64,000 bases of DNA from Candidatus Omnitrophota bacterium (GTDB lineage Bacteria; Omnitrophota; Gorgyraeia; JABMRG01; JAFGKX01), in contig JAZDPX010000045.1 of the NCBI GenBank assembly GCA_043797125.1, positions 8,338 to 72,337 on the forward strand, read 5' to 3'. Positions within the stretch are counted from its first letter, which is position 1, and each line of letters begins with the position of its first letter. The notes under the pieces were generated by a model. That model had not been told where the DNA came from and ran no database searches. It saw only the letters and a program-made list of their open reading frames with translations. Shown here piece after piece: positions 5,903 to 64,000 of this stretch. The position numbers and the translations under genes were made by a program.

Positions 5903-5949
5903 GCCACTATATACACCATTATATATATTAAAACGCGCAAAATCAATGT

Positions 5950-47268: not shown

Positions 47269-47296
47269 ATTATACCAAATATTATACTTATGTAAA
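47269..47296 (-). promoter_or_regulatory. Candidate promoter TTTACA-N16-TATAAT for the 45639..47234 gene
   Basis: Minus strand reads TTTACAtaagtataatatttggTATAATaaccgaacgtcaacactattcttAGGAGaaacccATG. Confidence 0.35.
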
Positions 47297-47338: not shown

Positions 47339-50300
47339 TTACGCCTGCGCCTCTATCGCTTCTGTTGCCTGCTTTATCTCATCAAGGACCTTGCCGATTT
47401 CCGCTGAGGTAATCGGCGGCAGCATCTTAGCGATAACCTGGGCAACGCTCGGCTGGCTGGAGTGCAGCTTGCTTAAAGTATAAGCCAGCATAGCTTCAAA
47501 ACTTACCACGCCTTTATCCGGCTGCTGCGAAGTGATGAAAAACGATATGTTTCTGCCGGACCTGGCCTGGTTTCCTTCGTTAACAACTTCCGCTATGCGT
47601 TTTAAACCATTTTCTCCATAGCCCGGGTCGCAGATTACCCCGATTGCCGCGTAGTTGTTGTTTTCTTTCTGCTGCAGAAGCTCTTTTAATTTCTTTAGCT
47701 TGAGCGCGTCTTTTTCAACATCGTCCATCGTGTCGAACTCCGACTGGATATAACCCTTAACCTTGCCTCTTAGGAAATCATCTAGCTCAAGTACGTCGTG
47801 CCTGTCTAAGCGCTCGTTCAGCTCAACGACAAGCGATTCTTTCCTGTTTTTATCAGGGACTATTAATATGTTGAACTTGCCCCCGCTTCTCGCTGTTTGC
47901 ATGCGGGCAAGTTCGGCAATCCTATCTTTATCTTTTTCTGTTACAACAGACTCATATATCACCAGCGTATAAATATTTCGCGAGTTCTGGCTGAATTCAT
48001 CAACGCTGTATTGCTCGTTCGCTCTTTCGAGCATCTCGTCGCAGGCTTCCCTGAAAAGCTGCTCGTAACTTTTTGCTTCCGGCCCTGGCTTTGCCTCGGT
48101 GGGCGGCGGAGTTTCGTCGCTTAAAAAGCGCTCCGGATCGTTTTTAAAATATGTATTTTGTATCGTTTCTACCTCTTCTTTGGTAAGAATTCGCATTACC
48201 TTTTTATTTGCTGCATGATCAAATTCATACCTTGCCACCTCGCCGTTTCCGACAGGCACGACAAAAAGCGCGTCTTTAAGTATGTTCGCGATTTTAGAAA
48301 ATTTGGTGTAGCCGCTAAGTATGGCTTTGGAGTTCTGTAGATACTTTGTGCCCGCGATTGCCACAGCCTCAAGCGGGTCTATCAGGGCGTATTCTTCTTC
48401 GTTCGGATTTTCTAATTTTATTAAAGTTATCTTATTTTTTTCATAAACAGAACGCAGTTTTTTAAACTCATCCAATTCGCTGTCCATTATTGCCTGATCC
48501 ATGTTAGACGGCAGATAACAATACTTTTCGCCTCCTACTTCACGCAGCCATTGCCCATTCCAAATTTCGCGGAATTTTTTGTAGTCGTAATCATCGGGAA
48601 TATCGTCGATTTTTTTAATCTCGCCGCCGATTATAGCCCCGTAAAATCCCGCGGCCTTCGCCGCTTCTTTCCAGGCCCTGACTGACATTATCGGCTTTCC
48701 CGCGCGGTAGCTTGACATGGAAAACTTATGCACAAACTCATGCTCGATGGTAAGGAAATCTGCCGAGGCTAAATCCCACTGCACATTATCCATGCTTTCA
48801 AGGCCCGTTTGCCCTTTCACGCCATACGGAAGCTTTGTAGCTTCTGACCCTACTGGAACGCTGATAAACTGCCTTAGTCTCTTTGGGAACCAAGTAATGG
48901 CCTCTCTGGCCATATCAAGTTTTTCCTCGGGGATATATCTCATAATCTCCACGTTTTCTTCCTGCTTTGTCTGCTTAACAAAATTAAAATGCCTTATAAA
49001 TTCAACGACAGGCGCGTCTTTTTCGGGCACCTGGCTTATTACCTCGTCTAAAAGTTCGCTGAGCTTCTCGATATTTATTCTGCCGTTTTCTTTTTGAGCG
49101 CCTTGTGGATTGGATATATAGTCTTGCGCTAATTTTATCGCTGTATCAATAAGCCTGATCTTTTTAAGCAGCACTAATTTTACAAAATCGCGCGCGTTAA
49201 GGCCTGATAGCTTATTTATTAATACGCCGTCTTTTTCAAGGCCTATTCTTCGGGCTATTACTTTTGCCGCCTCAAAAGCGTCTCTTCTGTGGGCGTGCAT
49301 CTGGGGCATTTTTTGTTTTGCGTCCTCGCTAAGGCCGCAATACACAAGATAGCCGCTTTCAGCATGCCTTATCAGGCCTATTGTTTTATAAAAGTTATGA
49401 AGCGCCATCTCTTCTCTTAAAAGTTCTTTTGGCTTGGCGCTTTGCCTGCGCAGCCTAACGCTATCTGTGCCGGTAATACTCCTTAAAATAATAGCTGCGC
49501 CTCTTTTCTCTATTGCTAATATATAATTAAACCTGACCTCCCATGTTGAGTGCTCCGGATCATAGTTATCATAGCCGCCGAAGAAATAAGGCAGCCCGTC
49601 TTCCAGCGGGTGGATTGAAATAGTTTCTCCGGTTTTTAGGTTTATCTCTTTAAGCGCCAGTCCGCTTGCGTTTAACCGGTCTTTTTCTAAAACATACTGA
49701 TTATCTCCGGCAAAAATTATTATTGGCTCGCTATACGAGAATCTTATTTCATTTTTGCCCGTTAAAACAATTTCTTCGTCCGACAGCGGCGGGAACGCCG
49801 CCTTCCAGTATTCCGCCGCTTTTCTATTTTTCGCAAAATCCGCCCAGTTTTTAAGCATCCTTTCTATCTTTCCTCTGTTAGGCAAAAACTTTTGGTCTTT
49901 GTTTGCCGCCATCTCAAGCGCCAATTCGTATATAAAACCTAATATCTTAAAAGCTTCCCTGGCGTCATCTTTGTTGTTAATTGTCACGTCCTCGTGAACT
50001 TTTCCGGCTTTTTGTTTATATTTTTTCTTTATCGCGGCTTCTGTCAGTTCGCTGATTCCAAGCGCCTTAATTACAAAAGCCTCCAATGAATCCCAGTTTG
50101 CGTCGTTAACATTCGCGATTTGCTCTAATATAAATTCCCTCGCCGCCATTCTAATTTTACTTAACATTACGCCATAGTCTGCCTTAAGAGCGCCTGCCGC
50201 GTTTCTGGCGGCATCCATAAATACTTCGTTCTCGCCTAATGCAACGAGAACTTCCGCGTCTTTCTTAAGTGCGTCATCTGGAGTATTTATTATCCAGAGC

Positions 50301-53300
50301 ATCACAGCTTCGTGCGCATTCGCTTCAAGCGCGCCTGTTTTTACGAAGTTTCCGACAGCTTCCCTGGCCTTATCTTGTATGCCGGGGGTATCCCAGCGTA
50401 CGCCCCCCATGCCAGTCGGCAGCGGCGGGGCGGTGGGCGTTATCCGCGCTGCTATAAAGCAACTATCAATAGAATATTTCGGCTCATAACTGAATGGATG
50501 CGTTTTGCTTAAGGGAAGTATTTCGTAATTTTTTGAGGCAATCACGGTCTGAATTAGGCCAAGATTTGAGTAAATTGCGGCGCTCGTAGGTATAAGCACT
50601 GCCTCGCAGTTTAAGGCCTTGGCTAATTCCTTGGCGTAATCAATAAGCTTGTTATATATATCATCCGCGGCAACCCCGGTTAACAGGCTCGTGCTTGGGT
50701 TAATGCCGGGAAGAACAAGGTATTTTTTGTTGTTATCTTCTATAATTAACACATACATGCCGCCTTGGGCAATACCATTCGAATCAAATATGATTATATT
50801 GATAAAGTTGGGATTATTCCAAAGCCTTTCATCTTCTGCGGTGCATGCGCCCATATTCAGGCCTGCTACGCCGTGGGCTTTTCTCTTTGAGGCAACGAAT
50901 CTTAACGCAATTTTTTCTTGCGATTCCTGGAATTCATATTTCCTCTCCACTTCAGCCTGCATGTGTTCATATTCACTTCCCTGCAAGAGCTTGGTTATGA
51001 TGGCTGCTTCTTTGCCTTGCTGCATCTTAAAGGTTGTGGATTTTAATTCGTTTTGTATTGATTGCTCGTCTGTTTTATCTTTTACTTTTTCCCATATCGC
51101 ATCAGCCGTATAATCGTCATCTATTCTTAGCGCCTTCTTGATTAATTGTATCAGCTGACGCTCATCCTTCTTTTCGCGAGCTTTAAGTATGTTAAATACT
51201 GTTTTAGCGGCGCCTTCTGGTCTTTCTATTCTGACGCTGAGCATCTTGTCATACGACTCTTGATTTTGCTTTTTATACGCAGCAATACATTCACCGGCTA
51301 GATCTCGCAAGGTGTCCCCCATAAATACATTTATATCGATAATATTCCCAATTATTGCCAATGATTCTGGCAGCATCCTGTTGCCGGAACTCCTGTAGTA
51401 GCGATATAGTTGTTCCAATAAATCTTCCCTGACATTGTGTAGGCCCCCCATTTTCCACTGCTCAAGAAGCTGTCCGCCTAAACTGGCTGCTTTTTCTTTG
51501 TCCGGCGCTAACAAGGCTTCCCCGTTTACCTTGGCAATAACCTGCCGGATAGTTCGCCACGGACTAGCATCTAATGGCATGGACGGGTCCTTTAAGATAT
51601 ATTGGCCGACAGATATATCGATCGGTTTTGTTTCTTGCAAATGCGCTGGTATCTCCTTTGTGTCTTGCGGCCTGTCGGCTCTATTTTTGTACATCGCAAA
51701 ATAACTTCCCCTTTGGACGGTTACTGCGGGCGGGAATATATATAATAGCATTGTGCTGAACAACGGGTCTTTGTCTGCTTTGGCTGTGTCGCCTTCTAAT
51801 ATCTCATTATGTATGCGCTTGCACCTTTCTATGAGCTCATTTAGCTTCCTTGGATTGTTCTTATATGCTTCATATACGCTAACTATGGCATAGGGGTTTT
51901 CTTTTAGGAAAGCGTTGATTTGGTCTTTTTCTTTTGATATTGGTTTTGAGATTACGCCTTGTTTAACGCCCAAAAGGAGGAAGTTTTCCAATAAATCATA
52001 TGCCCTTATGCCGTGTGTTTGTATAAATTCTTTAATAAAAGCCAGGTCAGCCTCTGATTCTATCGCGCCAGCAGCAAACAGCTTTTTCGTAACTCCGAGA
52101 CAAAGGAACGCGCCCTGGCGCTGCTTAAAGAATATGGGTTTGAAAAATATTTTCCAGGATTGGGGCCATTTCCTCAATATGGGTTCTGCTTCATGTATCT
52201 GCTCTATTAGTTGATATTCAACGCCTGCGGATAATGTTAGCGCTTGTATTAAATCGTATCCTATTTTAATAAAGTCGTCTTTTGTATTAATAGCCGAGTC
52301 AAAAAGATAAAACATTCTGGCAAAATGTTCTGTATTTGCTGCTGTCTCTTTAAGGAATCCCGTTAGCTTTGCAAAAAAGGTTGGCTCTGCTATATCATCA
52401 AGCCCTGTCTTTGTTATTACAAAAAGGCCTATAAGAATACTGACAAGCCGTTCCTGTTTTAGGCCTGTGGCGGTTTTAAGTGCTTCTGTTACGCTGGCTA
52501 TCTCGTCCTGCGCTTTGGCAAATAACCGCTTATCAAATATTCCTACTCTTGCGTGCTCTGCGGTTATGGCTGCTAAGGCTTCGGCTCTATCAAGCTTATT
52601 GGTTATTTTTTCTGCTGTGGTTATCGCATCTTTAAACTTTCCTGCCTTTGTCTGCTCTGCTGCTACGCCTTTAAGGGCTAATGATTTATTATCGGTATCG
52701 GTGATGATGCTTGCTGTAGCGAGGGCGTCATTAAACATCCCTGCCTTTGCCTGTTCTATTGCCAGCTCCTTAAGGATGGCTGGTTTAAGATGAGCGCCAT
52801 CTATGGTTTTTGCTGTAGCGAAGGCATCATTAAACGTATTTTTTGCTTCATCAAGCATGCCTGCTTTTGCCTGCTCTGCTGCTATGCCTTGAAGGGCTTC
52901 TGCTTTATGTTTGGTATCGGTGATGGTGCTTGCTGTGGCGAGGGCGTCATTAAACGTATTCTTTGCTTCATCAAGCATGCCTGCTTTTGCCTGCTCTGCT
53001 GCTATCTCTTTAAGAGCTAATGATTTATAATAGGCGTTGGTTATGATGCTTGCTGTGGCGATGGCGTCATCCAGCTTGCCTATCTTTGCAAACCATTTTG
53101 CAATAACGATGAGGGCTTCTGGTTTGTCATCGGTATAGGTGCTGGTTTTTGCTGTGGCGAGGGCATCTATTAATGCTTTGTTTGCGTCATCCATCCTGCC
53201 TGCTTCTGTAAACCCTTCTGCGACAGCGGCGAGGGCTTTTGCTTTGTCAACGGCTTCGGTAATGGTGTTTGCTGTGGCGAGGGCATCTTCAAACATCCCA

Positions 53301-56300: not shown

Positions 56301-59300
56301 AAAATTGTAAACACCCTTTCTATATCTTTTATGCTTAAGCCCTTTTCCGCGGCGAATAAAGAAAGCTTATCAAGAATGCCGTTGTAACCCCGCGTAGTGC
56401 CTGTTATTCCAAGCATGTTACAAAGCCCTGTGTGTATATTTTTCTTTTTTTGCTGTACTGACCGCTCAAGCAGTATGTTGTTTAGCATCATGGAATATGT
56501 TATGTTGGAATCTCCAAAAATATACTGTTGCAAAGGCAGAATGTCAAATTTTTGTTCTTCCGCTTGCGGCATCGCGGAGCGAACCACTTTTTCGTCGGTG
56601 GCATAAGTCTTAAACTCATAAAAAGTTTCGCCTAGTATTGTCCTAAGTTTAATGTCGCCGTATATGTCTGCTGCGCCCTCTTCAAAAACCAATAAGTGGT
56701 TTTTGATAAGAAAGCGGGCCAAAAGATTAAACACAGCTATGTGTTTTTCCATACCTTTATCTTCCGGCCCCGGCAAAAGCCCTGAATGCAAAGCAAAGAT
56801 TTTGTTGTCTTTTGATGAGAAGTTGAGAAAATCTCCAACGTTGCGGTCAAATGTACAAAAATTCAGCCTCTGGGCGTTTATAAGGCTCCTGAAATCGGCC
56901 AAAAAGACTTTTTGCCTCTCTCCTTGTACGCTGTTTTCTAATTTTGCAAGAATGCCGTCTAACGACAGTGGGGCCTGGCCCGTCAATGCCGCCTTGCCCA
57001 GAGCAGAGCCGCTTGCTTTGCCTTCTATGTTTAATAAAATATCGCCGTTTATCTTGATGATTTCCGTTACTTTTGTGTCTTTGCCCAGCTGGTCGGAATT
57101 TTCTTGTTCGGGATCCAATATGTTGATGATTGTTTCCTCGGGCGGCCTTTTATCCTGCGGAATGTCTTGTTTTGTAGCGTTGTTGGGCTTAGGAGGCTGT
57201 AGCTGCGATATATCAGCCTTTAGCTTTTTAATTTCCTCGTTTATCTTGTTTACCTTCGCAAGAAGCTCATCAACAAGAAGCTTCTTCTCAAGGCCTTTTT
57301 TCGCCGCTTTATCATCCGTAAGTAAATCAATAATTTTTCTTTTGGCCTTTATCGCTTTGTTCAAATGGCCGATGGCGAGTTCAAGCCTGCTGATTTTATC
57401 TTGCGTTTTCTTTTGTGTCTGGGATGAGTTTTGCGGTATTGTTGTTTTAGCCGCTATTTCCTCGTCGCGCTTTGCTTTATCCAATTCATCTTTGCACTCT
57501 TTCTCAAGGGCCTCAACCTTACCCCTTCTCACACATTCCTCTTGCGTTTCATAAATTCTGATTTCAAGCGCCTCGTCTTCCTTATCAAGCTCAAAGGCCT
57601 TGTTAAGAAGCTTAAACGCCTCTTGAATGTCTTGCGCCGTTTTGTTTTCCCTGCTTAAAAATTCTTCCGCCTTTTCCAAATACGCCTGTTTAAGGGTTGT
57701 TTTTACCGCGGTATCATCCGGGACAAGCGCGCTCGCTTTCTCGAGCAGCTCTATTGCCTTTTCATAATTTTTCTCTTCTATAAGCTGTTTGGACCGCGTC
57801 AGGTAGGCTTTTTTAAGCATGGCGATTAATGTTGCGTCGCCCGGGACCAACTGAAGCCCTTTTTCCAGAGAAGCTATTGTGTTGTCAAGATTTGATTCGG
57901 TTTCGTGTTGCTTTGCTCTCTTCTCATACGCTTCGCTAAGCGCTTTTGAAATATCTGTGTCATCCGCAGCAAGTTTGTGGGCATCCGTAAGCACATCTAT
58001 CGCTTTTTCATAATTTTTCTCTTCCATGAGCTTTTTTGCGTATTTTAAGCTCGCTTCTTTACGCAACTGCAGTATGCGGGCCCTGTTTGAATCAAACTTA
58101 TGCGCTTTTTCAAGCAAGGCTACCGCGCCTGCATAATCCCCTTTATCGATAAGCTGCCTACCATAATCTGAAGACACTGCTGTGAGCCTTTTGCTTAAAA
58201 GTTCTATGCCGTAACCGCTTAATTCATGCTTGATGGCAATCACAAGATAGTTTATTTCTTCGTCGGGCCTTTGCTCTTGCAGCGTAGAGCCTATTTTTTC
58301 TTTTAATTCTTTAATAAATTCATTATTCGGCTCTGCTTTGTGCAGGGCCTCTATTACACAGGAGCGCTGCTGTGCCGGCATTTGTCTGTCCATAAAGATT
58401 TCATCGATTAAAACGCTTCTTAGTTCGCTGGAGAAAGCATTCCTGTATAAATCGCGGAGAAAATCTGTTGTTTTTTCCGGGAATAGCCCTGAAAGATGCT
58501 TTAGCGCCTTCTTAATATCTACCGCTCCTTCTTTGTCATTGTTTAATATTTCTTTTACTCCGCCGTAAAAAAGCATTTTCGATTCAAAGGCTAATACAGC
58601 GTAAAATTCTTCCTCGCCGCATTTTTCTATATCGAGATCGCTGCTGGAAAATTCGTTAAGGGCCTCGAAAATACGCGACTGCACGAAGGTTGCCCTTGTC
58701 AGCGGCGCATCATCCCATAGCGGCTTTATCAGGTGGCTTATTTTGCTTATATCCCCTTCTCTCATTCTAAGTGAAGCTCCTATCATTTCTTCGTAAGCTT
58801 CGCGTCTATATTGTTTATTAAGTTCGATATGCAAAATATCTATGGCGTCTTTTATAATTTGTACCTCTGTTCCGCTGAATCTTTTGTAGGTTCGTATTTT
58901 ATCTAGCAACAATTTTGCGGTAACGCCGATTTTCTTAATTACGTCGCTAAAATTCTTTTCTATTTTTGAAAAATCATTGCACTTGGCAATAATATCTAAA
59001 AGGTTGACATGCAAAAAGGGTTCATCCGGATAAAGCTTAATGGCTTTTCTTGCATATTTTTCCGCTTCGTTAAGATTACCCGCAGTTGCTAAACCTGCTG
59101 ATGTTGCAAAATAACTATATGCATCTTCAATACTTTTAATATCTTTGCCTTGCGTCATTTGGGACAAAAGCCTGGCGCTTGGCTTAAATGTTCTGTTCTT
59201 GATATCACCTTGTTTGCCAGCGGTTTTGATAATCTCTTGTACCTTAAAATGCAATTGCGTAAAAGCTTTTTTGTCCATGACCATCTTAATGTCGCTTGTC

Positions 59301-62300
59301 AGGCCCATATCCGCTCTGCCGAACCACACCCTGGATACAAGCCTACTTAGGTAATGGCTGTCTTGTTCCCATCCTTCGGGCCACTGTTTTTGATCTTCTT
59401 CTTGCAAAGAATTTTTTGCTTCATCGCTTATATATACTCTCCCCAGGGATTTAAATGCCGAAGATATGTTTTTTCTGATAAAGATTTCTATTGTACGGTC
59501 ATCGATAAGTTGGAACTTCAAGTATCTTGGATTTTGTCGGTCATCGCCAACAAGATAATGGCTTATCTCGTGCAATATGGCTAATGGGTTATCTATTAGG
59601 AATTTCTCAAGAGCTATAAGGTTGTGTTCTGCGCAGGTAAAACCAAAAAGGTCTTTATTTATTTTGTCAAAACTGTAAAGCCGCAGTCCTAATGGTATAG
59701 CTGTATCCAGAACAGAAAAAAGCATATTTTTATAGTCGGGGTTGGGGAATCGCAGCCCTTCAAAAACATCTTTAACTGCGCTCGCCGGGTCTGCGTCTAC
59801 TTTGTTAATAACAAGCTCTTCAAATATTTCTTCTGGTTCGAATTTGCTTGGTAATATACAAACGGGCACAACCGCCCGGCTCTCATCGGCTTCGGTAAAT
59901 TTCAGCTTGTCTGTTTGCGCGTATGCCTCGTTTCCGCCTATGCCCTGGTGTTCGCTAAGTTCTAGGTGTACGCCAGCATGCCCCGCCGTATCGGCTTCTT
60001 CATAATTGACCTTAAAATAACCTTCGTCATCCAGGCGCATCAGCACACTATAGATAGCTTTATTTATGGTTTGGCCGTATTTTTCCTTTATGCTTGCCCA
60101 TATCTTTTTTAGGGTTTCTTTTGAGCCGTTGGCATTGTATTCCCTTGTCTTGTCGCGGGCTGCGTCAACGGAATCCGCTACTTTTACTATGCTGTCAATT
60201 TTTTTAAGCAGCGGTTTTTTGCCATATATGCTCTTGTCGGCTGAATGATGATTTACAATCAGTTCAAATACGCCATCTTCTAGGTATTCAGTAACTCCAT
60301 ATGCTTTTAATATTGTTTCTGCATTAGCCGCGTGTTCAGTTTTTCTTGTTTCCTCATTTTCATCCAGGCTGCCGTTTTTAATTGTCAGGGCAAAAGTCTC
60401 ATTATCATAAAGTTTGCCGATATCATGCCACAAGCCTGCCTGGCGCGCCTTTTGTATGGCCCTGGAACCTTTGTCAGAACCCATGCCCATTTCTTGCGCG
60501 ATTTTTGCCGCAAGCCTGCTGGTGCGCCTGGCGTGCTCAAACAGCGCTTGTATCTGTTCAGCGCTGGCATTTATCTTATTATCTTTGGCAACCTGCTTAT
60601 ATACGGCGAATGCCTGCTCTTCTTTTATTCTATTTGTAAGATCTTCGTCCGCTTCGCCCAGCGTGGCTTTCCCAAGAGCGCGTAAATAATAATGGGTTCC
60701 CCTGCCCGGGTTTTCTTTTAATTTTGTGTTGAGCCAGGACAGGATTTCGTCGTTTAATCGCACCTTGCCTATTCCCGTATGGAGCAACATACCTTTTTTT
60801 CTTATGACTAAATCGTTTCCTTCGGTATGGAATTTGATTTTGTTCTGCGCGCAAATATATTCTTGCAGTTCGTGCAATAGGGCGGCGGGGTCTTGAGAAA
60901 ACTTTTCGTATATAGCAATGAGTTTGTCCTTTGGCAGGGCTTTGCCGAAGCAGTCTTCGATAAGCAGGTCGAATGTATGCAAATCCGGAGGAGATTTTTC
61001 GCGCAAGGCCAAAAGGCTTAAAATCACATCTTTATGGGAATTCTTTATGCGTTGGTTGGTTTTAACCCAGCTTATTATGGTATCTATATCCATTTTGCCC
61101 TGATGGAAAAGTTTTCCCGCATGTTCTCGGCCGGCTCTGTCTGTTATTATTATTTTCTCTTCTTTCGGGTTTACGCTTACAATCCCGCCGCGCTTGCCCA
61201 TTTGCGCGGGGCCGCTGCCGACATTAACCAGCTCGCTTAAATTCGCATCCAGCACCACATCCTGATACGCTAACACGTCGTGTTTGTAGTACTGCTGCCA
61301 GCTGCTCAAAAGGCCGGCCATCTTCCTTGCCTCTTTGGAAGCGCCGGCTTTGCTTAATTTCACGAAATCTCCGATAATGATTAAGTGCTCTTCTGCCATT
61401 GAAATTGCTAAAGTCAGCCGCTGGTGAAGTCCTTGTAATTGGCCTGGCTTGCTTCCTCTGAGGTCTAACACAACCACCTTGTTTTTCTCAGGCAAGCCAA
61501 ACCCTTCATGCCTGTACTCGGTGACAATTGTGGTGATGTCTTTATTGGCATAATCGTATTTGTCTATAAGCCTGTCTATTTCATCTGAGAGCCCTAATGG
61601 TTTGTCTGCGACATCAATTATTTTCAATACATCCTCACCAAAAGGTTCCCAATCTCTTGGGGCGAGTTCTTTGTCGCCGTATGAGAGCGACACAAGGCCC
61701 GCGTGAATCGGGTGCAGCTGGTGGGCTGTGGATAGCCTGATTATATCAGCTCTTTCATATATTTTATCTATGGGCAGGCCCTGATTATAGTAGTCTATTT
61801 GTTCTTGCGTTGTTTTCTTCACGGTTTTGGCCTCATTGGGTAAAATGCCGCGCGGCGGCATTTGCTGGCTGTCATATATGATGATAACTCTTCTTGCGCG
61901 CGTCATTGCCTGGAGTATCTCAGGGTAGGTTGCTTCCTCCGCGTGTATAAACGCAACATCAAAAGCTTGTGGTACATCCCTAAAAAGAAGTTTATCATCA
62001 AACCGCCTTTTTAACGCTTCGCCCTCTTTATACTCTTTAATCTCGCGATCCGTATCCATGCTTTGAAATTTTCCGAAAAGCGCGTAGCCTTTTCTGCGCT
62101 CACCCACCTCAAGTCTTTCATTAAATAAATCAAGGTTTTTATCCGGTATGCGATTATTGGCTGTAGCAACTATTTTGGCTGTATTACTGAATTCATCCGG
62201 GTTGTTTCCCAATCTTAAAACCGGCGCTTTTTTATCTTTGGGTGCCTTTTCATCGTTTACCAATTTTTCCAAATATCTATCCACAAGCCTGTGCGTTGCT

Positions 62301-64000
62301 CCGTAGAAAAATACCTTCTCGCCTCTATTAACCAGCTGCCTTATGGATTCCGCAACAACTTCTTCGCTGTCGCAGCCGCGCGGCGCCTCTAAAAGGAGTA
62401 AATTACTTACAAGCGAGAGCGCTACTGCCGTCTGGCAGGAGGCGTCTTTTGCAATGTCCTGGTTCATAAGTTTAAGGTTTTTAACGGCATCGGATAAATT
62501 GCTTTTACTAATATTTCCTTTTTCTGTTTCTAAACCGAGTATTCGGTTTATTGCCCAATGCTTGGTTGAATTTTTCTTTTTATCTGTAATATCCTTGTGC
62601 AGTGACTTCAGAGCTTCATAACATATTTTGCCGTTATCGCCTAAAGCCTTGAGTATTGCTTCAAAACTGTTAAGCTCCGCGTAAAGCTTGGGCCTGTCCT
62701 CTTTTTTAAGCTGGCCCTGGCCTTTTTCGTGAAGATGCAGTGCTTCTTCCGGCAATTTGTTTGTGTTTTTGGTTTTTTCAATGCCTTTTTTAATCCAGGC
62801 TATCTTTTTATTTATAACATCCAGGGGCTTATCCTGCTGGGCAGAGTCGATTACTATCTTTTGCAATCCCTTGTCGCTTAGATTCAGGCCTATCAGATCC
62901 CAGGAAAGCGGAATTAAATCGTTAATTCCTATTGCTTCTTTGAGCTGCCCCAGCGCTTCTAACGCAGGGGTTAAAGAGGCTTCTTTTTTGCTGCTTAACG
63001 CCTTATGGATAATGCCTATTAGCTGGCCTTTGTGTTTTGTATCCAGGGTTTTTGTGTCCAGGTTTAGGCTTTTCTTAAAATTGTTTAACACGCCTGTGGC
63101 GTCATCTGTTTTCAGGCCTTTGTTAATGATATAGGTGCATAGCTTAATAAGCTCATATTCAACCTGGTTGTTTGCTTCGGGGATGCTGAATGCCTGGCAT
63201 AATTTCTTATATGCCCTGCTATATTCAAGAAGAAGCTGCTGCCCCATAATTTCTAAATTGTCATGGTCGTCTTTGCCTTCTTCAGCTTTTAGCTGTGGGT
63301 CGATGGGGATTTCGATATCCTTGGTAATGCCCTCGCCTGTGATAAACAGCGTGCCTCCTATATAGAGGGTTTCCATCTGGCCTTTTTTAATGCGGCATTT
63401 TATTGCCTCTATAACTGTGTTTATGTCTTTTTGCGGGTCCGGGTAATGCGGGCTGGAAATGAGCTTTTTATCTAAGCAAAACATGTTTTGCTCTCCTGAT
63501 GAGAAGCGCGACAGACCTAATGCGGGGCCGGTGAAGACATACATTGCCGGAGGCGAGGCCTCAAAAAGCGCAAGGAATGCCTCCAGCGCCTCTTTATGCT
63601 GCGGGTTAATCTCTATTATTGTGTTTAACGCGGCGGTCAGCTCGCCGGGTTTTTTATTAATAAGCGCTATTTTTTCTTCGGAATTATTACTGGTATCCGC
63701 TATTTTAAGATAGCGGTCGCTCCCCTTTATAATAAGTTCTTTTACAGCAAGGTTAGTCCCGTCAATAGCTTCTTGTATGGGTATTATTTCTTCTTCCTGT
63801 GCTTTGTCCTGCTTTTCTTCCTTTGCTGGTTTTGACTGCAGCGGTTTGCTTTTCTCTTTGGGTATTAGCGGCAAGATGCGGCTAATTGAGGTCTTTGATT
63901 CTTCTAAGCCTTCTTTTGCCTTTTTCAAATCTTCTGCCGCTATGGTGCCTTGCGGGTATTTCTCTGTGATTTCCTCGTATTTTTTCTTTGCTCTTTTAAA
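47339..64000 (-). CDS. Giant multidomain protein (>=~5550 aa, N-terminus beyond right window edge): degenerate SF1 helicase-like module + HD phosphohydrolase domain + intact Upf1/DNA2-like SF1B helicase + coiled coil + TPR repeats + tandem 35-36 aa helical repeat array + HExxH-containing C-terminal region
   Basis: Single uninterrupted minus-strand frame. Stop is at 47339-47341. The ORF-track M at 63928 is a TTG, and the frame stays open to the window end (FKRAKKKYEEITEKYPQGTIAAEDLKKAKEG...). Motifs by approximate location. Degenerate helicase (~61360-62400): HPIHAGLVSLSYGD and LIIIGDF, but a P-loop-less FFYGATHRLVD. HD motif GLWHDIGK (~60425). Walker A VVIGPPGPGKTKV (~55510-55540), DEAS-box VLIIDEASKP, GDPNQLGPF, CWRSHP, TIDSIQGQE, and motif VI RRLNVAISRVQERM (~54360-54415). 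TPR-like NYEKAID...LYPDEPFLHVN (~57650-59100). HExxH in TIEHEFVHKF (~48728-48742). Confidence 0.85.
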   Translation of the reverse strand, partial: FKRAKKKYEEITEKYPQGTIAAEDLKKAKEGLEESKTSISRILPLIPKEKSKPLQSKPAKEEKQDKAQEEEIIPIQEAIDGTNLAVKELIIKGSDRYLKIADTSNNSEEKIALINKKPGELTAALNTIIEINPQHKEALEAFLALFEASPPAMYVFTGPALGLSRFSSGEQNMFCLDKKLISSPHYPDPQKDINTVIEAIKCRIKKGQMETLYIGGTLFITGEGITKDIEIPIDPQLKAEEGKDDHDNLEIMGQQLLLEYSRAYKKLCQAFSIPEANNQVEYELIKLCTYIINKGLKTDDATGVLNNFKKSLNLDTKTLDTKHKGQLIGIIHKALSSKKEASLTPALEALGQLKEAIGINDLIPLSWDLIGLNLSDKGLQKIVIDSAQQDKPLDVINKKIAWIKKGIEKTKNTNKLPEEALHLHEKGQGQLKKEDRPKLYAELNSFEAILKALGDNGKICYEALKSLHKDITDKKKNSTKHWAINRILGLETEKGNISKSNLSDAVKNLKLMNQDIAKDASCQTAVALSLVSNLLLLEAPRGCDSEEVVAESIRQLVNRGEKVFFYGATHRLVDRYLEKLVNDEKAPKDKKAPVLRLGNNPDEFSNTAKIVATANNRIPDKNLDLFNERLEVGERRKGYALFGKFQSMDTDREIKEYKEGEALKRRFDDKLLFRDVPQAFDVAFIHAEEATYPEILQAMTRARRVIIIYDSQQMPPRGILPNEAKTVKKTTQEQIDYYNQGLPIDKIYERADIIRLSTAHQLHPIHAGLVSLSYGDKELAPRDWEPFGEDVLKIIDVADKPLGLSDEIDRLIDKYDYANKDITTIVTEYRHEGFGLPEKNKVVVLDLRGSKPGQLQGLHQRLTLAISMAEEHLIIIGDFVKLSKAGASKEARKMAGLLSSWQQYYKHDVLAYQDVVLDANLSELVNVGSGPAQMGKRGGIVSVNPKEEKIIITDRAGREHAGKLFHQGKMDIDTIISWVKTNQRIKNSHKDVILSLLALREKSPPDLHTFDLLIEDCFGKALPKDKLIAIYEKFSQDPAALLHELQEYICAQNKIKFHTEGNDLVIRKKGMLLHTGIGKVRLNDEILSWLNTKLKENPGRGTHYYLRALGKATLGEADEDLTNRIKEEQAFAVYKQVAKDNKINASAEQIQALFEHARRTSRLAAKIAQEMGMGSDKGSRAIQKARQAGLWHDIGKLYDNETFALTIKNGSLDENEETRKTEHAANAETILKAYGVTEYLEDGVFELIVNHHSADKSIYGKKPLLKKIDSIVKVADSVDAARDKTREYNANGSKETLKKIWASIKEKYGQTINKAIYSVLMRLDDEGYFKVNYEEADTAGHAGVHLELSEHQGIGGNEAYAQTDKLKFTEADESRAVVPVCILPSKFEPEEIFEELVINKVDADPASAVKDVFEGLRFPNPDYKNMLFSVLDTAIPLGLRLYSFDKINKDLFGFTCAEHNLIALEKFLIDNPLAILHEISHYLVGDDRQNPRYLKFQLIDDRTIEIFIRKNISSAFKSLGRVYISDEAKNSLQEEDQKQWPEGWEQDSHYLSRLVSRVWFGRADMGLTSDIKMVMDKKAFTQLHFKVQEIIKTAGKQGDIKNRTFKPSARLLSQMTQGKDIKSIEDAYSYFATSAGLATAGNLNEAEKYARKAIKLYPDEPFLHVNLLDIIAKCNDFSKIEKNFSDVIKKIGVTAKLLLDKIRTYKRFSGTEVQIIKDAIDILHIELNKQYRREAYEEMIGASLRMREGDISKISHLIKPLWDDAPLTRATFVQSRIFEALNEFSSSDLDIEKCGEEEFYAVLAFESKMLFYGGVKEILNNDKEGAVDIKKALKHLSGLFPEKTTDFLRDLYRNAFSSELRSVLIDEIFMDRQMPAQQRSCVIEALHKAEPNNEFIKELKEKIGSTLQEQRPDEEINYLVIAIKHELSGYGIELLSKRLTAVSSDYGRQLIDKGDYAGAVALLEKAHKFDSNRARILQLRKEASLKYAKKLMEEKNYEKAIDVLTDAHKLAADDTDISKALSEAYEKRAKQHETESNLDNTIASLEKGLQLVPGDATLIAMLKKAYLTRSKQLIEEKNYEKAIELLEKASALVPDDTAVKTTLKQAYLEKAEEFLSRENKTAQDIQEAFKLLNKAFELDKEDEALEIRIYETQEECVRRGKVEALEKECKDELDKAKRDEEIAAKTTIPQNSSQTQKKTQDKISRLELAIGHLNKAIKAKRKIIDLLTDDKAAKKGLEKKLLVDELLAKVNKINEEIKKLKADISQLQPPKPNNATKQDIPQDKRPPEETIINILDPEQENSDQLGKDTKVTEIIKINGDILLNIEGKASGSALGKAALTGQAPLSLDGILAKLENSVQGERQKVFLADFRSLINAQRLNFCTFDRNVGDFLNFSSKDNKIFALHSGLLPGPEDKGMEKHIAVFNLLARFLIKNHLLVFEEGAADIYGDIKLRTILGETFYEFKTYATDEKVVRSAMPQAEEQKFDILPLQQYIFGDSNITYSMMLNNILLERSVQQKKKNIHTGLCNMLGITGTTRGYNGILDKLSLFAAEKGLSIKDIERVFTIFYPPADLKTNAEVSVETKRELLICAYNVFAKDIEAFLKPAVELLEEVSQDIGEQALIKASWEMASLAPLGILPQGQKMIIDLAKKEDTPQKKKQRLLSVIEWMQTAAEIFPGVGKLPPSNVKLYKKNKVQPKSKKQALDELETYIKVLDALIDTEKKASAENKENPNVAAYELQFKVLDGLIEDIKKNNGRNYNSVIKRMLGLMPAAEWPQDTDSNDLDLGADFAFIDEEIEGDESQQKAVELCLNSKQDLTVVIGPPGPGKTKVVTEIAKQFVKRGERVLITAQTHVAVDKALEELVKDGSIPILRLGNKMGDITIDEVRKFSTQIKENLLSFEEKRRENNDAFIAAGTSVGFYMDKTINFDKAMFDVLIIDEASKPTLPEVLIALRLAKKVIIIGDPNQLGPFPADHDVIGEKYGLTKEQTGLYNTGLINIIDPAYADHITLSTCWRSHPIHTGLVAISYGEEFQKKCERQLKKEWWKQHKWWQAKLQKRGWEPFDKDTLKIIDTSTLRNNQNGKDGNRWYADKYRERRGWRNTEYGKSLWNKGNAEEVVNEITKLMQKYNYKPEDFIIVTPYKAQQAYIDKKLEKIFHKKFEITTIDSIQGQEKKVVIIDFVRSNPGKPEIGFLKDIRRLNVAISRVQERMVIIGDFQQTLTKQREGEPEEDKVAKMLFREWLNYYETKVKPYLEDDKLDENGKAGIPVELAQQIYMAGKIIPLGNGGMVPDERTFKRAKEAVAKLKAGQEIGRGEFEALALAIIHEQPFIDDEVLVKLGQNEAFLKDIENSQGAIQQGREKILEKIKNATDTVRSLLQIFCLASIDALATAKTIANAADKVKALAAAAEMFTEIGRVDDANKALIDALATAKTITHDDDKLKALIVIAKWFAKIGRVDDANKALIDALATAKTIDGVYRGPAVLKEIAIEQAKLGMFDEAKNTFNDAIAKANTITNAYYKTLALKKISIEQAKVGMFDDALATASTITDTKHKAEALQGIAAEQARVGMFEDALATANTITEAVDKAKALAAVAEGFTEAGRMDDANKALIDALATAKTSTYTDDKPEALIVIAKWFAKIGKLDDAIATASIITNAYYKSLALKEIAAEQAKAGMLDEAKNTFNDALATASTITDTKHKAEALQGIAAEQAKAGMLDEAKNTFNDAFATAKTIDGAHLKPAILKELAIEQAKAGMFNDALATASIITDTDNKSLALKGVAAEQTKAGKFKDAITTAEKITNKLDRAEALAAITAEHARVGIFDKRLFAKAQDEIASVTEALKTATGLKQERLVSILIGLFVITKTGLDDIAEPTFFAKLTGFLKETAANTEHFARMFYLFDSAINTKDDFIKIGYDLIQALTLSAGVEYQLIEQIHEAEPILRKWPQSWKIFFKPIFFKQRQGAFLCLGVTKKLFAAGAIESEADLAFIKEFIQTHGIRAYDLLENFLLLGVKQGVISKPISKEKDQINAFLKENPYAIVSVYEAYKNNPRKLNELIERCKRIHNEILEGDTAKADKDPLFSTMLLYIFPPAVTVQRGSYFAMYKNRADRPQDTKEIPAHLQETKPIDISVGQYILKDPSMPLDASPWRTIRQVIAKVNGEALLAPDKEKAASLGGQLLEQWKMGGLHNVREDLLEQLYRYYRSSGNRMLPESLAIIGNIIDINVFMGDTLRDLAGECIAAYKKQNQESYDKMLSVRIERPEGAAKTVFNILKAREKKDERQLIQLIKKALRIDDDYTADAIWEKVKDKTDEQSIQNELKSTTFKMQQGKEAAIITKLLQGSEYEHMQAEVERKYEFQESQEKIALRFVASKRKAHGVAGLNMGACTAEDERLWNNPNFINIIIFDSNGIAQGGMYVLIIEDNNKKYLVLPGINPSTSLLTGVAADDIYNKLIDYAKELAKALNCEAVLIPTSAAIYSNLGLIQTVIASKNYEILPLSKTHPFSYEPKYSIDSCFIAARITPTAPPLPTGMGGVRWDTPGIQDKAREAVGNFVKTGALEANAHEAVMLWIINTPDDALKKDAEVLVALGENEVFMDAARNAAGALKADYGVMLSKIRMAAREFILEQIANVNDANWDSLEAFVIKALGISELTEAAIKKKYKQKAGKVHEDVTINNKDDAREAFKILGFIYELALEMAANKDQKFLPNRGKIERMLKNWADFAKNRKAAEYWKAAFPPLSDEEIVLTGKNEIRFSYSEPIIIFAGDNQYVLEKDRLNASGLALKEINLKTGETISIHPLEDGLPYFFGGYDNYDPEHSTWEVRFNYILAIEKRGAAIILRSITGTDSVRLRRQSAKPKELLREEMALHNFYKTIGLIRHAESGYLVYCGLSEDAKQKMPQMHAHRRDAFEAAKVIARRIGLEKDGVLINKLSGLNARDFVKLVLLKKIRLIDTAIKLAQDYISNPQGAQKENGRINIEKLSELLDEVISQVPEKDAPVVEFIRHFNFVKQTKQEENVEIMRYIPEEKLDMAREAITWFPKRLRQFISVPVGSEATKLPYGVKGQTGLESMDNVQWDLASADFLTIEHEFVHKFSMSSYRAGKPIMSVRAWKEAAKAAGFYGAIIGGEIKKIDDIPDDYDYKKFREIWNGQWLREVGGEKYCYLPSNMDQAIMDSELDEFKKLRSVYEKNKITLIKLENPNEEEYALIDPLEAVAIAGTKYLQNSKAILSGYTKFSKIANILKDALFVVPVGNGEVARYEFDHAANKKVMRILTKEEVETIQNTYFKNDPERFLSDETPPPTEAKPGPEAKSYEQLFREACDEMLERANEQYSVDEFSQNSRNIYTLVIYESVVTEKDKDRIAELARMQTARSGGKFNILIVPDKNRKESLVVELNERLDRHDVLELDDFLRGKVKGYIQSEFDTMDDVEKDALKLKKLKELLQQKENNNYAAIGVICDPGYGENGLKRIAEVVNEGNQARSGRNISFFITSQQPDKGVVSFEAMLAYTLSKLHSSQPSVAQVIAKMLPPITSAEIGKVLDEIKQATEAIEAQA
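52440..53880 (-). repeat. Tandem array of ~14 in-frame ~105-108 nt repeats inside the giant gene, encoding a 35-36 aa helical unit (consensus approx. ALATAKTITxxxxKxxALxxIAxEQAKxGMxDEAKNTFNDAL)
   Basis: The nucleotide-level repeat is directly visible: gcttgctgtggcgagggcatcattaaacgtattctttgcttcatcaagcatgcctgcttttgcctgctctgctgctat... recurs with small variations. Confidence 0.85.

What the first reader, a model, noticed from the sequence alone, without database searches (positions are those of the whole stretch)
47339..64000. Giant (>16.6 kb, still open at the window edge) multidomain ORF
A single minus-strand frame runs uninterrupted from the stop at 47339 to the right window edge, at least about 5550 codons. 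The start given in the ORF track (63928) is a TTG, and the frame stays open upstream of it. The product mixes modules not normally found in one polypeptide: a helicase-like module lacking a P-loop, an HD domain, an intact Upf1/DNA2-like SF1B helicase with all seven motifs, coiled coil, TPR repeats, about 14 tandem copies of a novel 35-36-aa helical repeat, and a C-terminal region carrying HExxH. Giant genes of this kind are characteristic of a few uncultivated lineages, notably Omnitrophota, where they are poorly characterised and proposed to act in cell-cell interaction or predation. This one has a nucleic-acid-processing core (helicase plus HD), which suggests a different function.
Basis: partly seen in the sequence, partly recalled or inferred. 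Interest (0 to 1): 0.85.

Follow-up and report, generated by a model that had tools for sequence, protein, structure and literature searches.

The report
Mosaic giant helicase–HD–GNAT protein gene
This is a real, uninterrupted gene fragment of at least 5,553 codons encoding a patchwork giant protein of the kind known from Omnitrophota-like uncultivated bacteria. It is built from duplicated helicase cassettes, an HD hydrolase, repeat scaffolds and a previously undescribed acetyltransferase-fold module, and its function is still inferred, not shown.

Summary
The minus-strand frame is open from 47342 to 64000 (5,553 codons, stop at 47339-47341), and the N-terminus lies beyond the window.

- a dead SF1B helicase
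- an HDIG-type HD domain
- TPRs
- an intact Upf1-like helicase

Three calls need correcting:
- The "novel" repeat is 12 TPR-like units of 33 or 40 aa.
- The C-terminal HExxH has no support.
- The first 920 aa and aa 2300-3265 are one duplicated cassette (34.7% identity).

New findings:
- A ~200-aa "M" module occurs four times.
- This module, the helicase subfamily and the downstream membrane-anchored gene (45639-47234) recur fused or adjacent in other metagenomic giant or large proteins.
- Complete relatives start with Sec-type leaders.

No other part has a relative in the databases searched. The visible part has no transmembrane segment and sits among housekeeping nucleotide-metabolism genes.

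Verdict: a new variant of the known Omnitrophota-type mosaic giant proteins. The phylum is likely but unproven. The mechanism, an exported enzyme string acting on a partner cell's nucleic acids, is inferred.

The parts
47339..64000 (-). Giant ORF: 5,553 codons plus stop. The N-terminus lies beyond the window edge.
63209..63760 (-). M1 (aa 81-264), the first of four copies of a ~200-aa M module. Its HExxH position is deleted.
   Evidence: Self-comparison and HMM
62678..63208 (-). Linker L1 (aa 265-441), paralogous to L2.
61223..62677 (-). Inactive SF1B helicase paralogue (aa 442-926). The P-loop, DE motif, motif V and arginine finger are lost.
60614..61210 (-). M2 (aa 931-1129), with HELQE at the motif position.
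60071..60553 (-). HD/HDIG metal-dependent phosphohydrolase domain (aa 1150-1310). The H...HD...H...HH...D residues are present.
   Evidence: PF01966 at 3e-11 and TIGR00277 above cutoff; Cas3-HD-like at 3e-7; residues read
59276..59875 (-). M3 (aa 1376-1575), the only copy with an intact HExxH (HEISH, aa 1477-1481).
57701..59083 (-). TPR region (aa ~1640-2100).
   Evidence: TPR_14, TPR_19 and TPR_2 at 1e-11 to 1e-16
57104..57583 (-). K/E-rich, probably helical or coiled linker (aa 2140-2299).
   Evidence: Read from the sequence; not tested with a predictor
56471..57103 (-). M4 (aa 2300-2510), motif degenerate.
55886..56470 (-). Linker L2 (aa 2511-2705), paralogous to L1.
54218..55885 (-). Intact Upf1-like SF1B helicase (aa 2706-3261). 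Motifs I-VI are present, with a W/K/R-rich insertion between motifs IV and V. Subfamily signature: GF[LI]KD[LI]RRLNV.
53846..54193 (-). X1 helical element (aa 3270-3385), paralogous to X2.
52526..53842 (-). Array of 12 TPR-like repeats of 33 or 40 aa (aa 3387-3825).
50399..52330 (-). Conserved 640-aa module (aa 3891-4534): a ~450-aa helical domain followed by a GNAT-fold domain. It defines a Pfam-dark family.
50441..50938 (-). GNAT-fold subdomain (aa ~4355-4520). Family-invariant residues: K4372, H4376, C4386, D4390, W4394, G4413, P4435 and S4478-N4479-R4480.
50060..50455 (-). X2 helical element (aa 4516-4647), paralogous to X1.
49925..50059 (-). Weak J-domain-like stretch (aa 4648-4692) with HED in place of HPD. 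Sub-threshold.
   Evidence: PF00226 at E 1.3e-3, below cutoff; PDB E 0.3
47342..49924 (-). C-terminal ~860 aa with no detectable relatives or domains. Contains HEFVH at aa 5087 (window 48728-48742).
45639..47234 (-). Downstream gene g531: 531 aa with an N-terminal hydrophobic anchor. Its homologues are fused to, or adjacent to, the helicase or the 640-aa module elsewhere. Its motif pattern resembles the Tiki/TraB/ChaN superfamily.
   Evidence: Pfam only sub-threshold
47269..47296 (-). Near-consensus sigma-70-like promoter match (TTTACA-16-TG-TATAAT) in the 104-nt gap between the giant gene and g531.
   Evidence: This is a consensus match only.

Best explanation
SHOWN: The window holds the 3' end (at least 16.6 kb) of one real gene for a mosaic giant protein. 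The protein was built by duplication and cassette shuffling, in this order:
- [M - linker - dead helicase]
- [M - HD]
- [M - TPR]
- K/E-rich linker
- [M - linker - active Upf1-like helicase]
- X element
- 12 TPR-like repeats
- 640-aa helical plus GNAT-fold module
- X element
- about 900 orphan residues

Three components recur together in different fusion or adjacency arrangements in other genomes:
- the helicase subfamily
- the repeat array plus GNAT-fold module
- the membrane-anchored product of the next gene (g531)

This recurrence suggests they are functionally linked.

INFERRED: The protein is of the Omnitrophota-type 'multi-enzyme' giant class. Like its relatives that have complete N-termini, it probably starts upstream with a Sec-type leader and is exported. 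It would then act as a string of largely independent enzymes on or in a partner (host or prey) cell:
- The active 5'->3' helicase and the HD phosphohydrolase engage and cleave nucleic acid.
- The GNAT-fold module acylates a substrate held by its helical domain and repeat array.
- The dead helicase, TPRs and M modules serve as binding or scaffold elements.
For: Single gene:
- The frame is uninterrupted with uniform composition, and its repeats are diverged.

Enzyme cassettes intact:
- Helicase motifs and HD residues are present.

Duplication:
- The two cassettes share 34.7% identity over 801 aligned columns.

Mosaic class:
- The same helicase subfamily occurs in a 4,771-aa ORF with PALP, HAD and HD domains, and in a 3,808-aa ORF with g531-like, HATPase_c and epimerase domains.
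- The 640-aa module occurs in open frames of at least 4,751, at least 5,898, and 6,439 aa.
- The 2026 catalogue describes a multi-enzyme class that includes HD, GNAT and methyltransferase domains.

Linkage of the three components:
- Helicase and module are fused in L021 and adjacent in L003.
- g531-like and helicase are fused in L014 and adjacent in L017.
- g531-like and module are fused in P0013, P0015 and the L009 giant.

Export:
- Sec-type leaders are present on both L003 proteins, L013, L016, L017, and on P0003, P0005-7, P0009 and P0010.
- 94% of catalogued Omnitrophota long proteins carry a signal peptide or transmembrane helix.

Lineage:
- The best genome hits for the module are in Omnitrophota MAGs.
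- There is synteny with L001.
Against: - The N-terminus is not in the window, so no leader has been seen for this protein.
- The 5,553 visible residues contain no hydrophobic segment above a Kyte-Doolittle mean of 1.6. Published giants average about one transmembrane helix per 370-500 residues.
- A helicase, an HD enzyme and an acyl-CoA-type transferase need cytoplasmic cofactors. Export only makes sense if the protein reaches another cell's cytoplasm, and nothing here shows that.
- The more distant members of the module family (about 100 of 110 complete representatives) have no leader.
- The flanks are housekeeping nucleotide-metabolism genes, with no T2SS or pilus genes as reported next to published giants.
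- Helicase-module co-occurrence is partial: 2 of about 7 close helicase loci, and 1 of 150 module representatives.
- The phylum is not proven.
Confidence: 0.45

Rival explanations
1. It is a cytoplasmic nucleic-acid surveillance or defence-like megaprotein. The TPR and repeat arrays would sense a trigger. The Upf1-like helicase would translocate on foreign RNA or DNA, and the HD domain would degrade it, much as Mokosh, Cas3 or Hhe/ProA-type helicase-nuclease defence proteins do.
For: - The helicase matches PADLOC MkoA at 4.5e-67 and MkoC at 1e-23. It also matches the NCBIfam PLuB helicase-like model at 1e-28 and ProA at 3e-14.
- The HD domain is most similar to Cas3 HD models, 3e-7.
- There is no transmembrane segment in 5,553 aa.
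- If the TTG at 63928 is the true start, the protein has no leader.
Against: - All those matches are confined to the generic SF1B core and lie far below the family cutoffs (99 vs 999 bits; 52 vs 1,500 bits).
- No partner genes (MkoB/C, cas, PLD nuclease), no defence island and no mobile-element context lie next to the gene.
- The module is absent from viral contigs, and nothing links the gene to phage.
- Relatives of the same helicase subfamily carry Sec-type leaders and metabolic-enzyme cassettes.
Confidence: 0.2
2. The helicase and the GNAT-fold module form a TmcA/NAT10-like machine. The ATP-driven SF1 motor would present an RNA (or other polymer) substrate to the acyltransferase domain for acylation, with the rest of the protein acting as scaffold.
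For: - Helicase and GNAT-fold module lie in one polypeptide here and in L021, and in adjacent genes in L003.
- There is a weak hit of the helicase to PF05127, the NAT10/TmcA helicase (E 1.3e-4, 22.4 vs 22.7 bits).
- The GNAT fold is established.
Against: - The two domains are about 1,100 residues apart.
- No DUF1726 or tRNA-binding domain is present.
- Most module-family proteins lack any helicase (149 of 150 representatives), and most helicase-subfamily loci lack the module.
- The canonical acetyl-CoA motif Q/RxxGxG/A is not visible in the sequence (by inspection).
Confidence: 0.12
3. It is an adhesion or cell-wall-degrading surface giant, as proposed for published Omnitrophota giants (Archaeovorin or dockerin type).
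For: - The lineage and size class fit.
- The repeat arrays could serve as a binding surface.
Against: - No glycoside hydrolase, peptidase (above threshold), dockerin, lectin, SecA_DEAD or C39 domain was found.
- No transmembrane helices were found.
- No T2SS, pilus or CAZyme genes flank it.
Confidence: 0.1
4. It is an artefact: an assembly chimera across repeats, or a decaying pseudogene whose frame is open by chance.
For: A repeat array exists, and most of the sequence has no relatives.
Against: - 5,553 stop-free codons in a 44% GC sequence cannot arise by chance.
- The repeats are at most 89% identical over 225 nt.
- The catalytic motifs of the helicase, the HD domain and the module's invariant residues are intact.
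- Composition is uniform.
Confidence: 0.04

Closest known systems
Omnitrophota giant 'multi-enzyme' proteins (Archaeovorin-type of West-Roberts et al. 2023, bioRxiv 10.1101/2023.11.21.568195; class 1 of Nielsen & Lui 2026, bioRxiv 10.64898/2026.06.07.730766)
   Same: - A very long single ORF tiled by many unrelated enzyme and repeat cassettes.
- HD, GNAT-type and TPR/HEAT content.
- Sequences that are mostly orphan.
- Internal repeats that have diverged at the DNA level.
- A likely Omnitrophota-related host.
   Different: - Only 5,553 aa or more are visible, whereas the catalogues start at 10,000 or 30,000 aa.
- There are no transmembrane helices in the visible part.
- There are no SecA_DEAD or C39 domains.
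- There are no T2SS or pilus flanks.
- It carries twin SF1B (Upf1-like) helicase cassettes, which neither paper mentions.
Upf1-like SF1B helicases (Upf1, IGHMBP2, DNA2, Sen1, MOV10; Mokosh MkoA)
   Same: The AAA_11 plus AAA_12 core with motifs I-VI. PDB hits at 1e-20 to 1e-25, and MkoA at 4.5e-67.
   Different: - It is embedded in a giant mosaic.
- It belongs to a distinct subfamily (GF[LI]KD[LI]RRLNV) whose complete members carry Sec-type leaders.
- It is duplicated, with one dead copy.
- No CH, nuclease or PLD partner domain is present.
GNAT acetyltransferases (closest structure: NatD/Naa40, PDB 4u9w)
   Different: - About 9% sequence identity and no Pfam GNAT hit.
- No recognisable Q/RxxGxG/A motif.
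- Fused to a ~450-aa helical domain.
- Has its own invariant K, H, C, D, W and SNR residues.
TmcA / NAT10 RNA cytidine acetyltransferases
   Same: An SF1-type P-loop motor and a GNAT-fold domain in one polypeptide.
   Different: A different helicase family, a different GNAT family, a large spacing between them, and no DUF1726 or tRNA-binding domain. This is an analogy only.
Tiki/TraB/ChaN (erythromycin-esterase-like) superfamily, for the neighbouring gene g531
   Same: A motif pattern of H-x-Q-D-x-H, E-G, R-D and G-G-F-H in the same order. The comparison with the superfamily rests on my own knowledge of it.
   Different: Pfam PF04187 is reached only below threshold (9e-4 in P0013; 0.047). Membership is not established.

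Membership tests
Omnitrophota-type giant mosaic proteins | Single ORF of at least 10,000 aa (Nielsen & Lui) or more than 30,000 aa (West-Roberts) | tested here: inconclusive
   5,553 codons are visible and the frame is still open at the window edge. The full length is unknown.
Omnitrophota-type giant mosaic proteins | Encoded in an Omnitrophota genome | tested here: inconclusive
   The best genome matches of the 640-aa module are Omnitrophota MAGs (50% and 42%). It also occurs in MAGs labelled Planctomycetales, Elusimicrobia and CPR. The window has no rRNA or tRNA, and no marker-gene phylogeny was possible.
Omnitrophota-type giant mosaic proteins | Many distinct enzyme or repeat domains tile the polypeptide | tested here: met
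   Helicase x2, HD, TPR, TPR-like array, GNAT-fold module and four M modules.
Omnitrophota-type giant mosaic proteins | Signal peptide and/or multiple transmembrane helices (94% of catalogued proteins) | tested here: not met
   The visible 5,553 aa have no segment above a Kyte-Doolittle mean of 1.6. The N-terminus is outside the window, so a leader cannot be excluded.
Omnitrophota-type giant mosaic proteins | SecA_DEAD and/or N-terminal C39/S8 peptidase domain; T2SS or pilus genes nearby | tested here: not met
   No such Pfam hits in the visible part. The 47 kb downstream is housekeeping. The upstream side is not visible.
Upf1-like SF1B helicase | AAA_11 plus AAA_12 core above the gathering score, with motifs I, Ia, II, III, IV, V and VI intact | tested here: met
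   Copy 2 (aa 2706-3261): 96.8 and 112.6 bits against a cutoff of 27, with the motifs read. Copy 1 (aa 442-926) fails motifs I, II, V and VI.
HD superfamily (HDIG subtype) | PF01966 or TIGR00277 above cutoff, and the H...HD...D metal ligands | tested here: met
   44 bits vs 22, and 29.1 bits vs 27.6. H1156, H1191-D1192, H1223, H1251-H1252 and D1276 were read.
GNAT superfamily | GNAT fold | tested here: met
GNAT superfamily | Sequence-family membership (Pfam GNAT models) and the acetyl-CoA motif Q/RxxGxG/A | tested here: not met
   No Pfam hit in the giant or in 38 family members. The beta4-alpha3 loop reads LPGINPSTS (by inspection).
Mokosh defence system (MkoA) | MkoA-type helicase together with MkoB/MkoC or a PLD nuclease partner in the locus | tested here: not met
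   Only the helicase core matches. The neighbours are g531, glmS, rsmI and lpxA.
Cas3 | HD nuclease fused to an SF2 DEAD/DEAH helicase, with cas genes and a CRISPR array | tested here: not met
   HD similarity is only 3e-7, the helicases are SF1B, and no cas genes were found. No CRISPR-like tandem array lies in the gene region.
TmcA/NAT10 | DUF1726 - TmcA-type helicase - GNAT - tRNA-binding domain architecture | tested here: not met
   PF05127 scores 22.4 bits, below its 22.7 cutoff, and no DUF1726 or tRNA-binding domain was found.

The most novel reading that the evidence does not exclude
The giant belongs to an undescribed class of Sec-exported, ATP-dependent nucleic-acid enzymes made by ultra-small episymbiotic or predatory bacteria. 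These would be Upf1-like helicase and HD phosphohydrolase cassettes coupled to a new GNAT-fold acyltransferase family and a Tiki/TraB-like membrane partner. The class would be delivered into a partner cell's cytoplasm to unwind, cut and chemically modify its RNA or DNA. That would be an effector system for nucleic-acid predation or host reprogramming, not an adhesin or cell-wall digester.
Probability: 0.18. Interest if true: 0.85.

Novelty: new variant of a known kind. Interest (0 to 1): 0.55.

Why it matters
Giant genes of Omnitrophota and similar lineages are catalogued, but their function is unknown. The prevailing ideas are adhesion and cell-wall digestion.

This example adds three concrete, testable handles:
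- A Pfam-dark but widespread module (476 cluster representatives at 50% identity) that models confidently as a GNAT fold, with an invariant K/H/C/D/SNR set.
- A distinct Upf1-like helicase subfamily that recurs inside mosaic giants. In complete relatives it sits behind Sec-type leaders, which is hard to reconcile with an ATP-dependent motor unless the protein reaches another cell.
- A recurrent link between these two elements and a membrane-anchored partner protein, seen through different gene fusions in different genomes.

If the export and partner-cell reading is right, it would point to nucleic-acid-directed effectors in episymbiotic bacteria. If it is wrong, the protein is still a clean case of how giants are assembled by cassette duplication and shuffling.

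Tried and rejected
- **Recovering the source contig or N-terminus.** Exact look-ups of the two downstream proteins found nothing. The first 400 aa had no relative among GTDB species representatives. The start therefore remains unknown.
- **Homologue searches.** A search with aa 554-5553 returned only distant helicases. A search with the M4-linker-helicase cassette returned only helicases at 26-27% identity. Other segments (N-terminal 80 aa, L1/L2, X1/X2, the HD region, the C-terminal 860 aa) matched none of the fetched relatives.
- **M module.** No PDB match with a four-copy profile and no Pfam match. Its peptidase-like HExxH is intact only in M3, so I do not call it a protease.
- **C-terminal HExxH.** It is unrelated to the M module (hhalign probability 0.1%).
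- **Possible extension of the duplication.** The similarity between aa 1-110 and the region before M4 was not significant (z = 1.9).
- **Shared C-terminal sorting domain.** None was shared with relatives (z below 1.5).
- **J domain.** Sub-threshold and lacking HPD, so rejected.
- **Viral origin of the module.** No hit in IMG/VR.
- **g531 as Tiki/ChaN.** Only sub-threshold Pfam hits and no PDB hit, so kept as a lead only.
- **AFDB fold search.** The library was not available.
- **Taxonomy from neighbours.** A DUF4143 ATPase is 64% identical to one in a 'Planctomycetales'-labelled MAG. This is not informative.
Full report
**1. The observation**

Translating the minus strand gives one open stretch from 47342 to 64000. 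It is 5,553 codons long, ends at the stop 47339-47341, and runs off the right edge of the window. The ORF list starts it at a TTG at 63928. The frame stays open upstream of that TTG. The first 100 visible codons contain no ATG or GTG, only two TTGs without a convincing ribosome-binding site. So the true start is either that TTG or, more likely, lies outside the window.

GC content is 0.41-0.46 along the gene, the same as the rest of the window. A chance open frame of this length is impossible at 44% GC.

The only repetitive DNA is the array at about 52.5-53.9 kb. Its copies are at most 89% identical over 225 nt. Mis-assembly there is unlikely but cannot be excluded without reads.

**2. Anatomy**

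In what follows, residue i corresponds to window position 64000-3(i-1), counting downwards.

Pfam, NCBIfam and PDB sequence searches confirm four features:
- An HD domain of the HDIG type at aa 1150-1310. PF01966 scores 3e-11 and TIGR00277 passes its cutoff. All metal-ligand histidines and aspartates are present.
- TPRs at aa ~1640-2100.
- An intact Upf1/IGHMBP2/DNA2-like SF1B helicase at aa 2706-3261. AAA_11 scores 2e-27 and AAA_12 scores 2e-32. PDB matches to IGHMBP2, DNA2 and Upf1 fall at 1e-20 to 1e-25.
- A second helicase-like region at aa 442-926.

Self-comparison shows that aa 81-930 and aa 2300-3265 are two copies of one cassette: M module, linker, helicase. They share 34.7% identity over 801 aligned columns. 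The first copy has lost four features:
- the P-loop (APRGCDSE in place of GPPGPGKT)
- the DE of motif II
- motif V
- the motif VI arginine

It is a dead helicase.

A ~200-aa 'M' module occurs four times, at aa 81-264, 931-1129, 1376-1575 and 2300-2510. Each copy precedes a different cassette. Only M3 keeps an HExxH (HEISH). M2 has HELQE, and the position is degenerate or deleted in M1 and M4. The module has no Pfam or PDB match.

A ~115-aa helical element also occurs twice, at aa 3270-3385 and 4516-4647.

The repeat array has 12 units of 33 or 40 aa (aa 3387-3825). It scores as TPR_12-like (2e-13).

The last ~860 residues have no detectable relative or domain. The HEFVH at aa 5087 is unsupported. 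A J-domain-like stretch at aa 4648-4692 is sub-threshold and lacks HPD.

A hydropathy scan finds no transmembrane-like segment anywhere in the 5,553 residues.

**3. The one widely conserved piece**

A search with the C-terminal 1,724 aa found three metagenomic proteins. They are about 50% identical to the giant over a single block, aa 3891-4534.

A profile of that block was run against 1.84 billion representatives. It found 476 proteins at E<=1e-3 and 159 at E<=1e-30. Most are 900-1,500 aa with the block at their C-terminus. A few are giants of 6,439, 4,199, 3,950 and 3,575 aa.

Among GTDB species representatives the block occurs in MAGs labelled as follows:
- Omnitrophota, the best hits at 50% and 42% identity
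- Planctomycetales
- Elusimicrobia
- Peregrinibacteria
- Saccharibacteria

In these MAGs it sits in open frames of at least 4,751 and at least 5,898 aa. Only this block is shared with our protein.

None of 38 diverse family members shares any Pfam domain.

The family has its own invariant residues: K4372, H4376, C4386, D4390, W4394, G4413, P4435 and S4478-N4479-R4480. The canonical acetyl-CoA motif is not recognisable. This is therefore a GNAT fold, not a demonstrated acetyltransferase.

**4. Recurrent associations**

*Helicase and module*
- In contig L003 the module protein is preceded, 10 nt upstream, by a 1,594-aa protein. Its helicase is 31% identical to the giant's active helicase.
- P0021/L021 carries the same helicase and the module in one ORF of at least 2,684 aa.

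*The helicase subfamily in other mosaics*

A metagenome scan used a profile of this helicase subfamily, whose signature is GF[LI]KD[LI]RRLNV. It found 14 loci. The close ones lie inside ORFs of 2,285 to 4,771 aa. Those ORFs also carry other cassettes:
- L013: PALP, HAD and HD
- L014: HATPase_c and an NAD-epimerase

*The downstream gene g531*

The gene just downstream of the giant, g531 (45639-47234), encodes 531 aa with an N-terminal hydrophobic anchor. Its homologues appear in these arrangements:
- It matches the N-terminal ~500 aa of two module-bearing proteins, P0013 and P0015 (25-28% identity, E 1e-40 to 1e-51).
- It matches part of the Elusimicrobia-labelled L009 giant.
- It matches the N-terminus of the L014 helicase protein.
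- It matches a gene directly upstream of the L017 helicase ORF.

So three elements are joined in different ways in different genomes: the helicase subfamily, the repeat-plus-GNAT module, and the g531-like domain. This is a Rosetta-stone style argument for a functional link.

The link is partial, however. Most module proteins have no helicase, and most helicase loci have no module.

A near-consensus promoter-like site sits in the 104-nt gap before g531. g531 may therefore be transcribed on its own.

**5. Localisation clue**

Every close relative with a complete N-terminus begins with a Sec-type leader: positive charges, a hydrophobic core and an AxA-like end. These include:
- both L003 proteins
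- L013, L016 and L017
- P0003, P0005, P0006, P0007, P0009 and P0010

In the published catalogue, 94% of Omnitrophota proteins of at least 10 kAA carry a signal peptide or transmembrane helices.

In contrast, the more distant 1,000-1,500-aa members of the module family lack leaders. Our visible sequence has none either.

ATP- and cofactor-dependent enzymes behind export signals are a puzzle. They only make sense if the protein ends up in another cell's cytoplasm, or if the leaders are not what they seem.

**6. Context and lineage**

Everything else in the window is bacterial housekeeping, almost all on the same strand:
- glmS, rsmI and lpxA
- the pyr genes
- purine biosynthesis genes
- nrdD, nrdG and nrdR
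- SHMT
- a V-type ATPase

At the left edge there is a two-partner-secretion pair whose exoprotein gene also runs off the window. There are no T2SS or pilus genes of the kind reported beside the largest Omnitrophota giants.

Contig L001, which carries a module protein, has the same pyrR-pyrB-pyrC-flavodoxin neighbourhood, with 55-69% identity to the window's proteins.

Omnitrophota origin is the best guess.

**7. Interpretation**

*Shown*
- One real gene.
- A mosaic built by duplication and cassette shuffling.
- An intact helicase and HD domain, and a conserved GNAT-fold module.
- A recurrent three-way association.

*Inferred, at about 0.45 confidence*
- It belongs to the known Omnitrophota-type multi-enzyme giants.
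- It is exported like its relatives.
- It works as a string of semi-independent enzymes on a partner cell's nucleic acids, and on another substrate acylated by the GNAT-fold module.
- The dead helicase, TPRs and M modules act as scaffolds.

*Rivals*
- A cytoplasmic defence-like helicase-nuclease sensor (0.2). The matches to MkoA, PLuB, ProA and Cas3-HD are only to generic cores and lie far below family cutoffs, and the gene sits in no defence context.
- A TmcA/NAT10-like helicase-driven acyltransferase (0.12). This is an analogy only, since its defining domains are absent.
- The adhesion or cell-wall model from the literature (0.1). No such domains were found.
- An artefact (0.04).

**8. Novelty**

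Giant mosaic ORFs in these lineages are already described. The following features are not mentioned in those papers:
- the twin SF1B helicase cassettes
- the M module
- the Pfam-dark GNAT-fold family
- the link to the g531-like protein

I therefore rate this a new variant of a known kind, of moderate interest.

Noticed in passing
window 2-5983 (-), 5950-7173 (-), 7248-8987 (-): A second very large ORF runs off the left edge, with at least 1,994 aa visible and the C-terminus missing. It is a TpsA-like exoprotein with a TPS secretion domain, DUF7948 and 10 SBBP beta-propeller repeats. Its ShlB/FhaC-type transporter lies upstream, with a DUF4143/AAA_14 ATPase gene between them. A similar TPS-domain giant (39% identity over the TPS domain) sits next to the module protein in L001.
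   Followed up: partly
L003:708-5492 and L003:5503-8766: Two adjacent genes, a helicase protein and a module protein, share a nearly identical ~45-aa N-terminal leader and a nearly identical ~60-aa C-terminus. This resembles shared trafficking or docking ends on different cargo.
   Followed up: no
P0003, P0009, P0046 (protein ids): These module-bearing large proteins share two regions: a ~330-aa domain right after the signal peptide (…DKFRPLHLRYL…), and in P0003 and P0009 a ~110-aa cysteine-containing C-terminal domain. The middle cassettes between them differ and include kinase-like, methyltransferase-like and HATPase-like regions.
   Followed up: no
window 54700-55010 (aa ~3000-3100 of the giant): The active helicase carries W/K/R-rich insertions between motifs IV and V (…KKEWWKQHKWWQAKLQKRGW… and …GNRWYADKYRERRGWRNTEYGKSLW…). 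These are absent from the dead copy and from the L003 helicase, and may form an extra nucleic-acid-binding surface.
   Followed up: no
window 9788-10357 (+): An IS200-like Y1 transposase gene, one of very few plus-strand genes in a window where nearly all genes are on the minus strand and GC skew is negative throughout.
   Followed up: no
window 31625-34093 (-): An 822-aa fusion of an ARMT1-like damage-control phosphatase domain with a HAD hydrolase domain.
   Followed up: no
window 5950-7173 and 30335-31534 (-); L008:2103-3320: Two paralogous AAA_14/DUF4143 ATPase genes lie in the window. The first is 64% identical to a gene lying just downstream of the module protein in a 'Planctomycetales'-labelled MAG contig.
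   Followed up: no
L010:8750-11992: The Peregrinibacteria-labelled homologue of the 640-aa module has an in-frame stop about 18 codons before the end of the aligned region. This could be a genuine earlier stop, or an alternative genetic code or sequencing error.
   Followed up: no
window 47269-47296 (-): An 11-of-12 match to a sigma-70 promoter with an extended -10 lies between the giant gene's stop and g531, followed by an AGGAGA ribosome-binding site. No terminator-like site occurs on that strand in the gap.
   Followed up: partly
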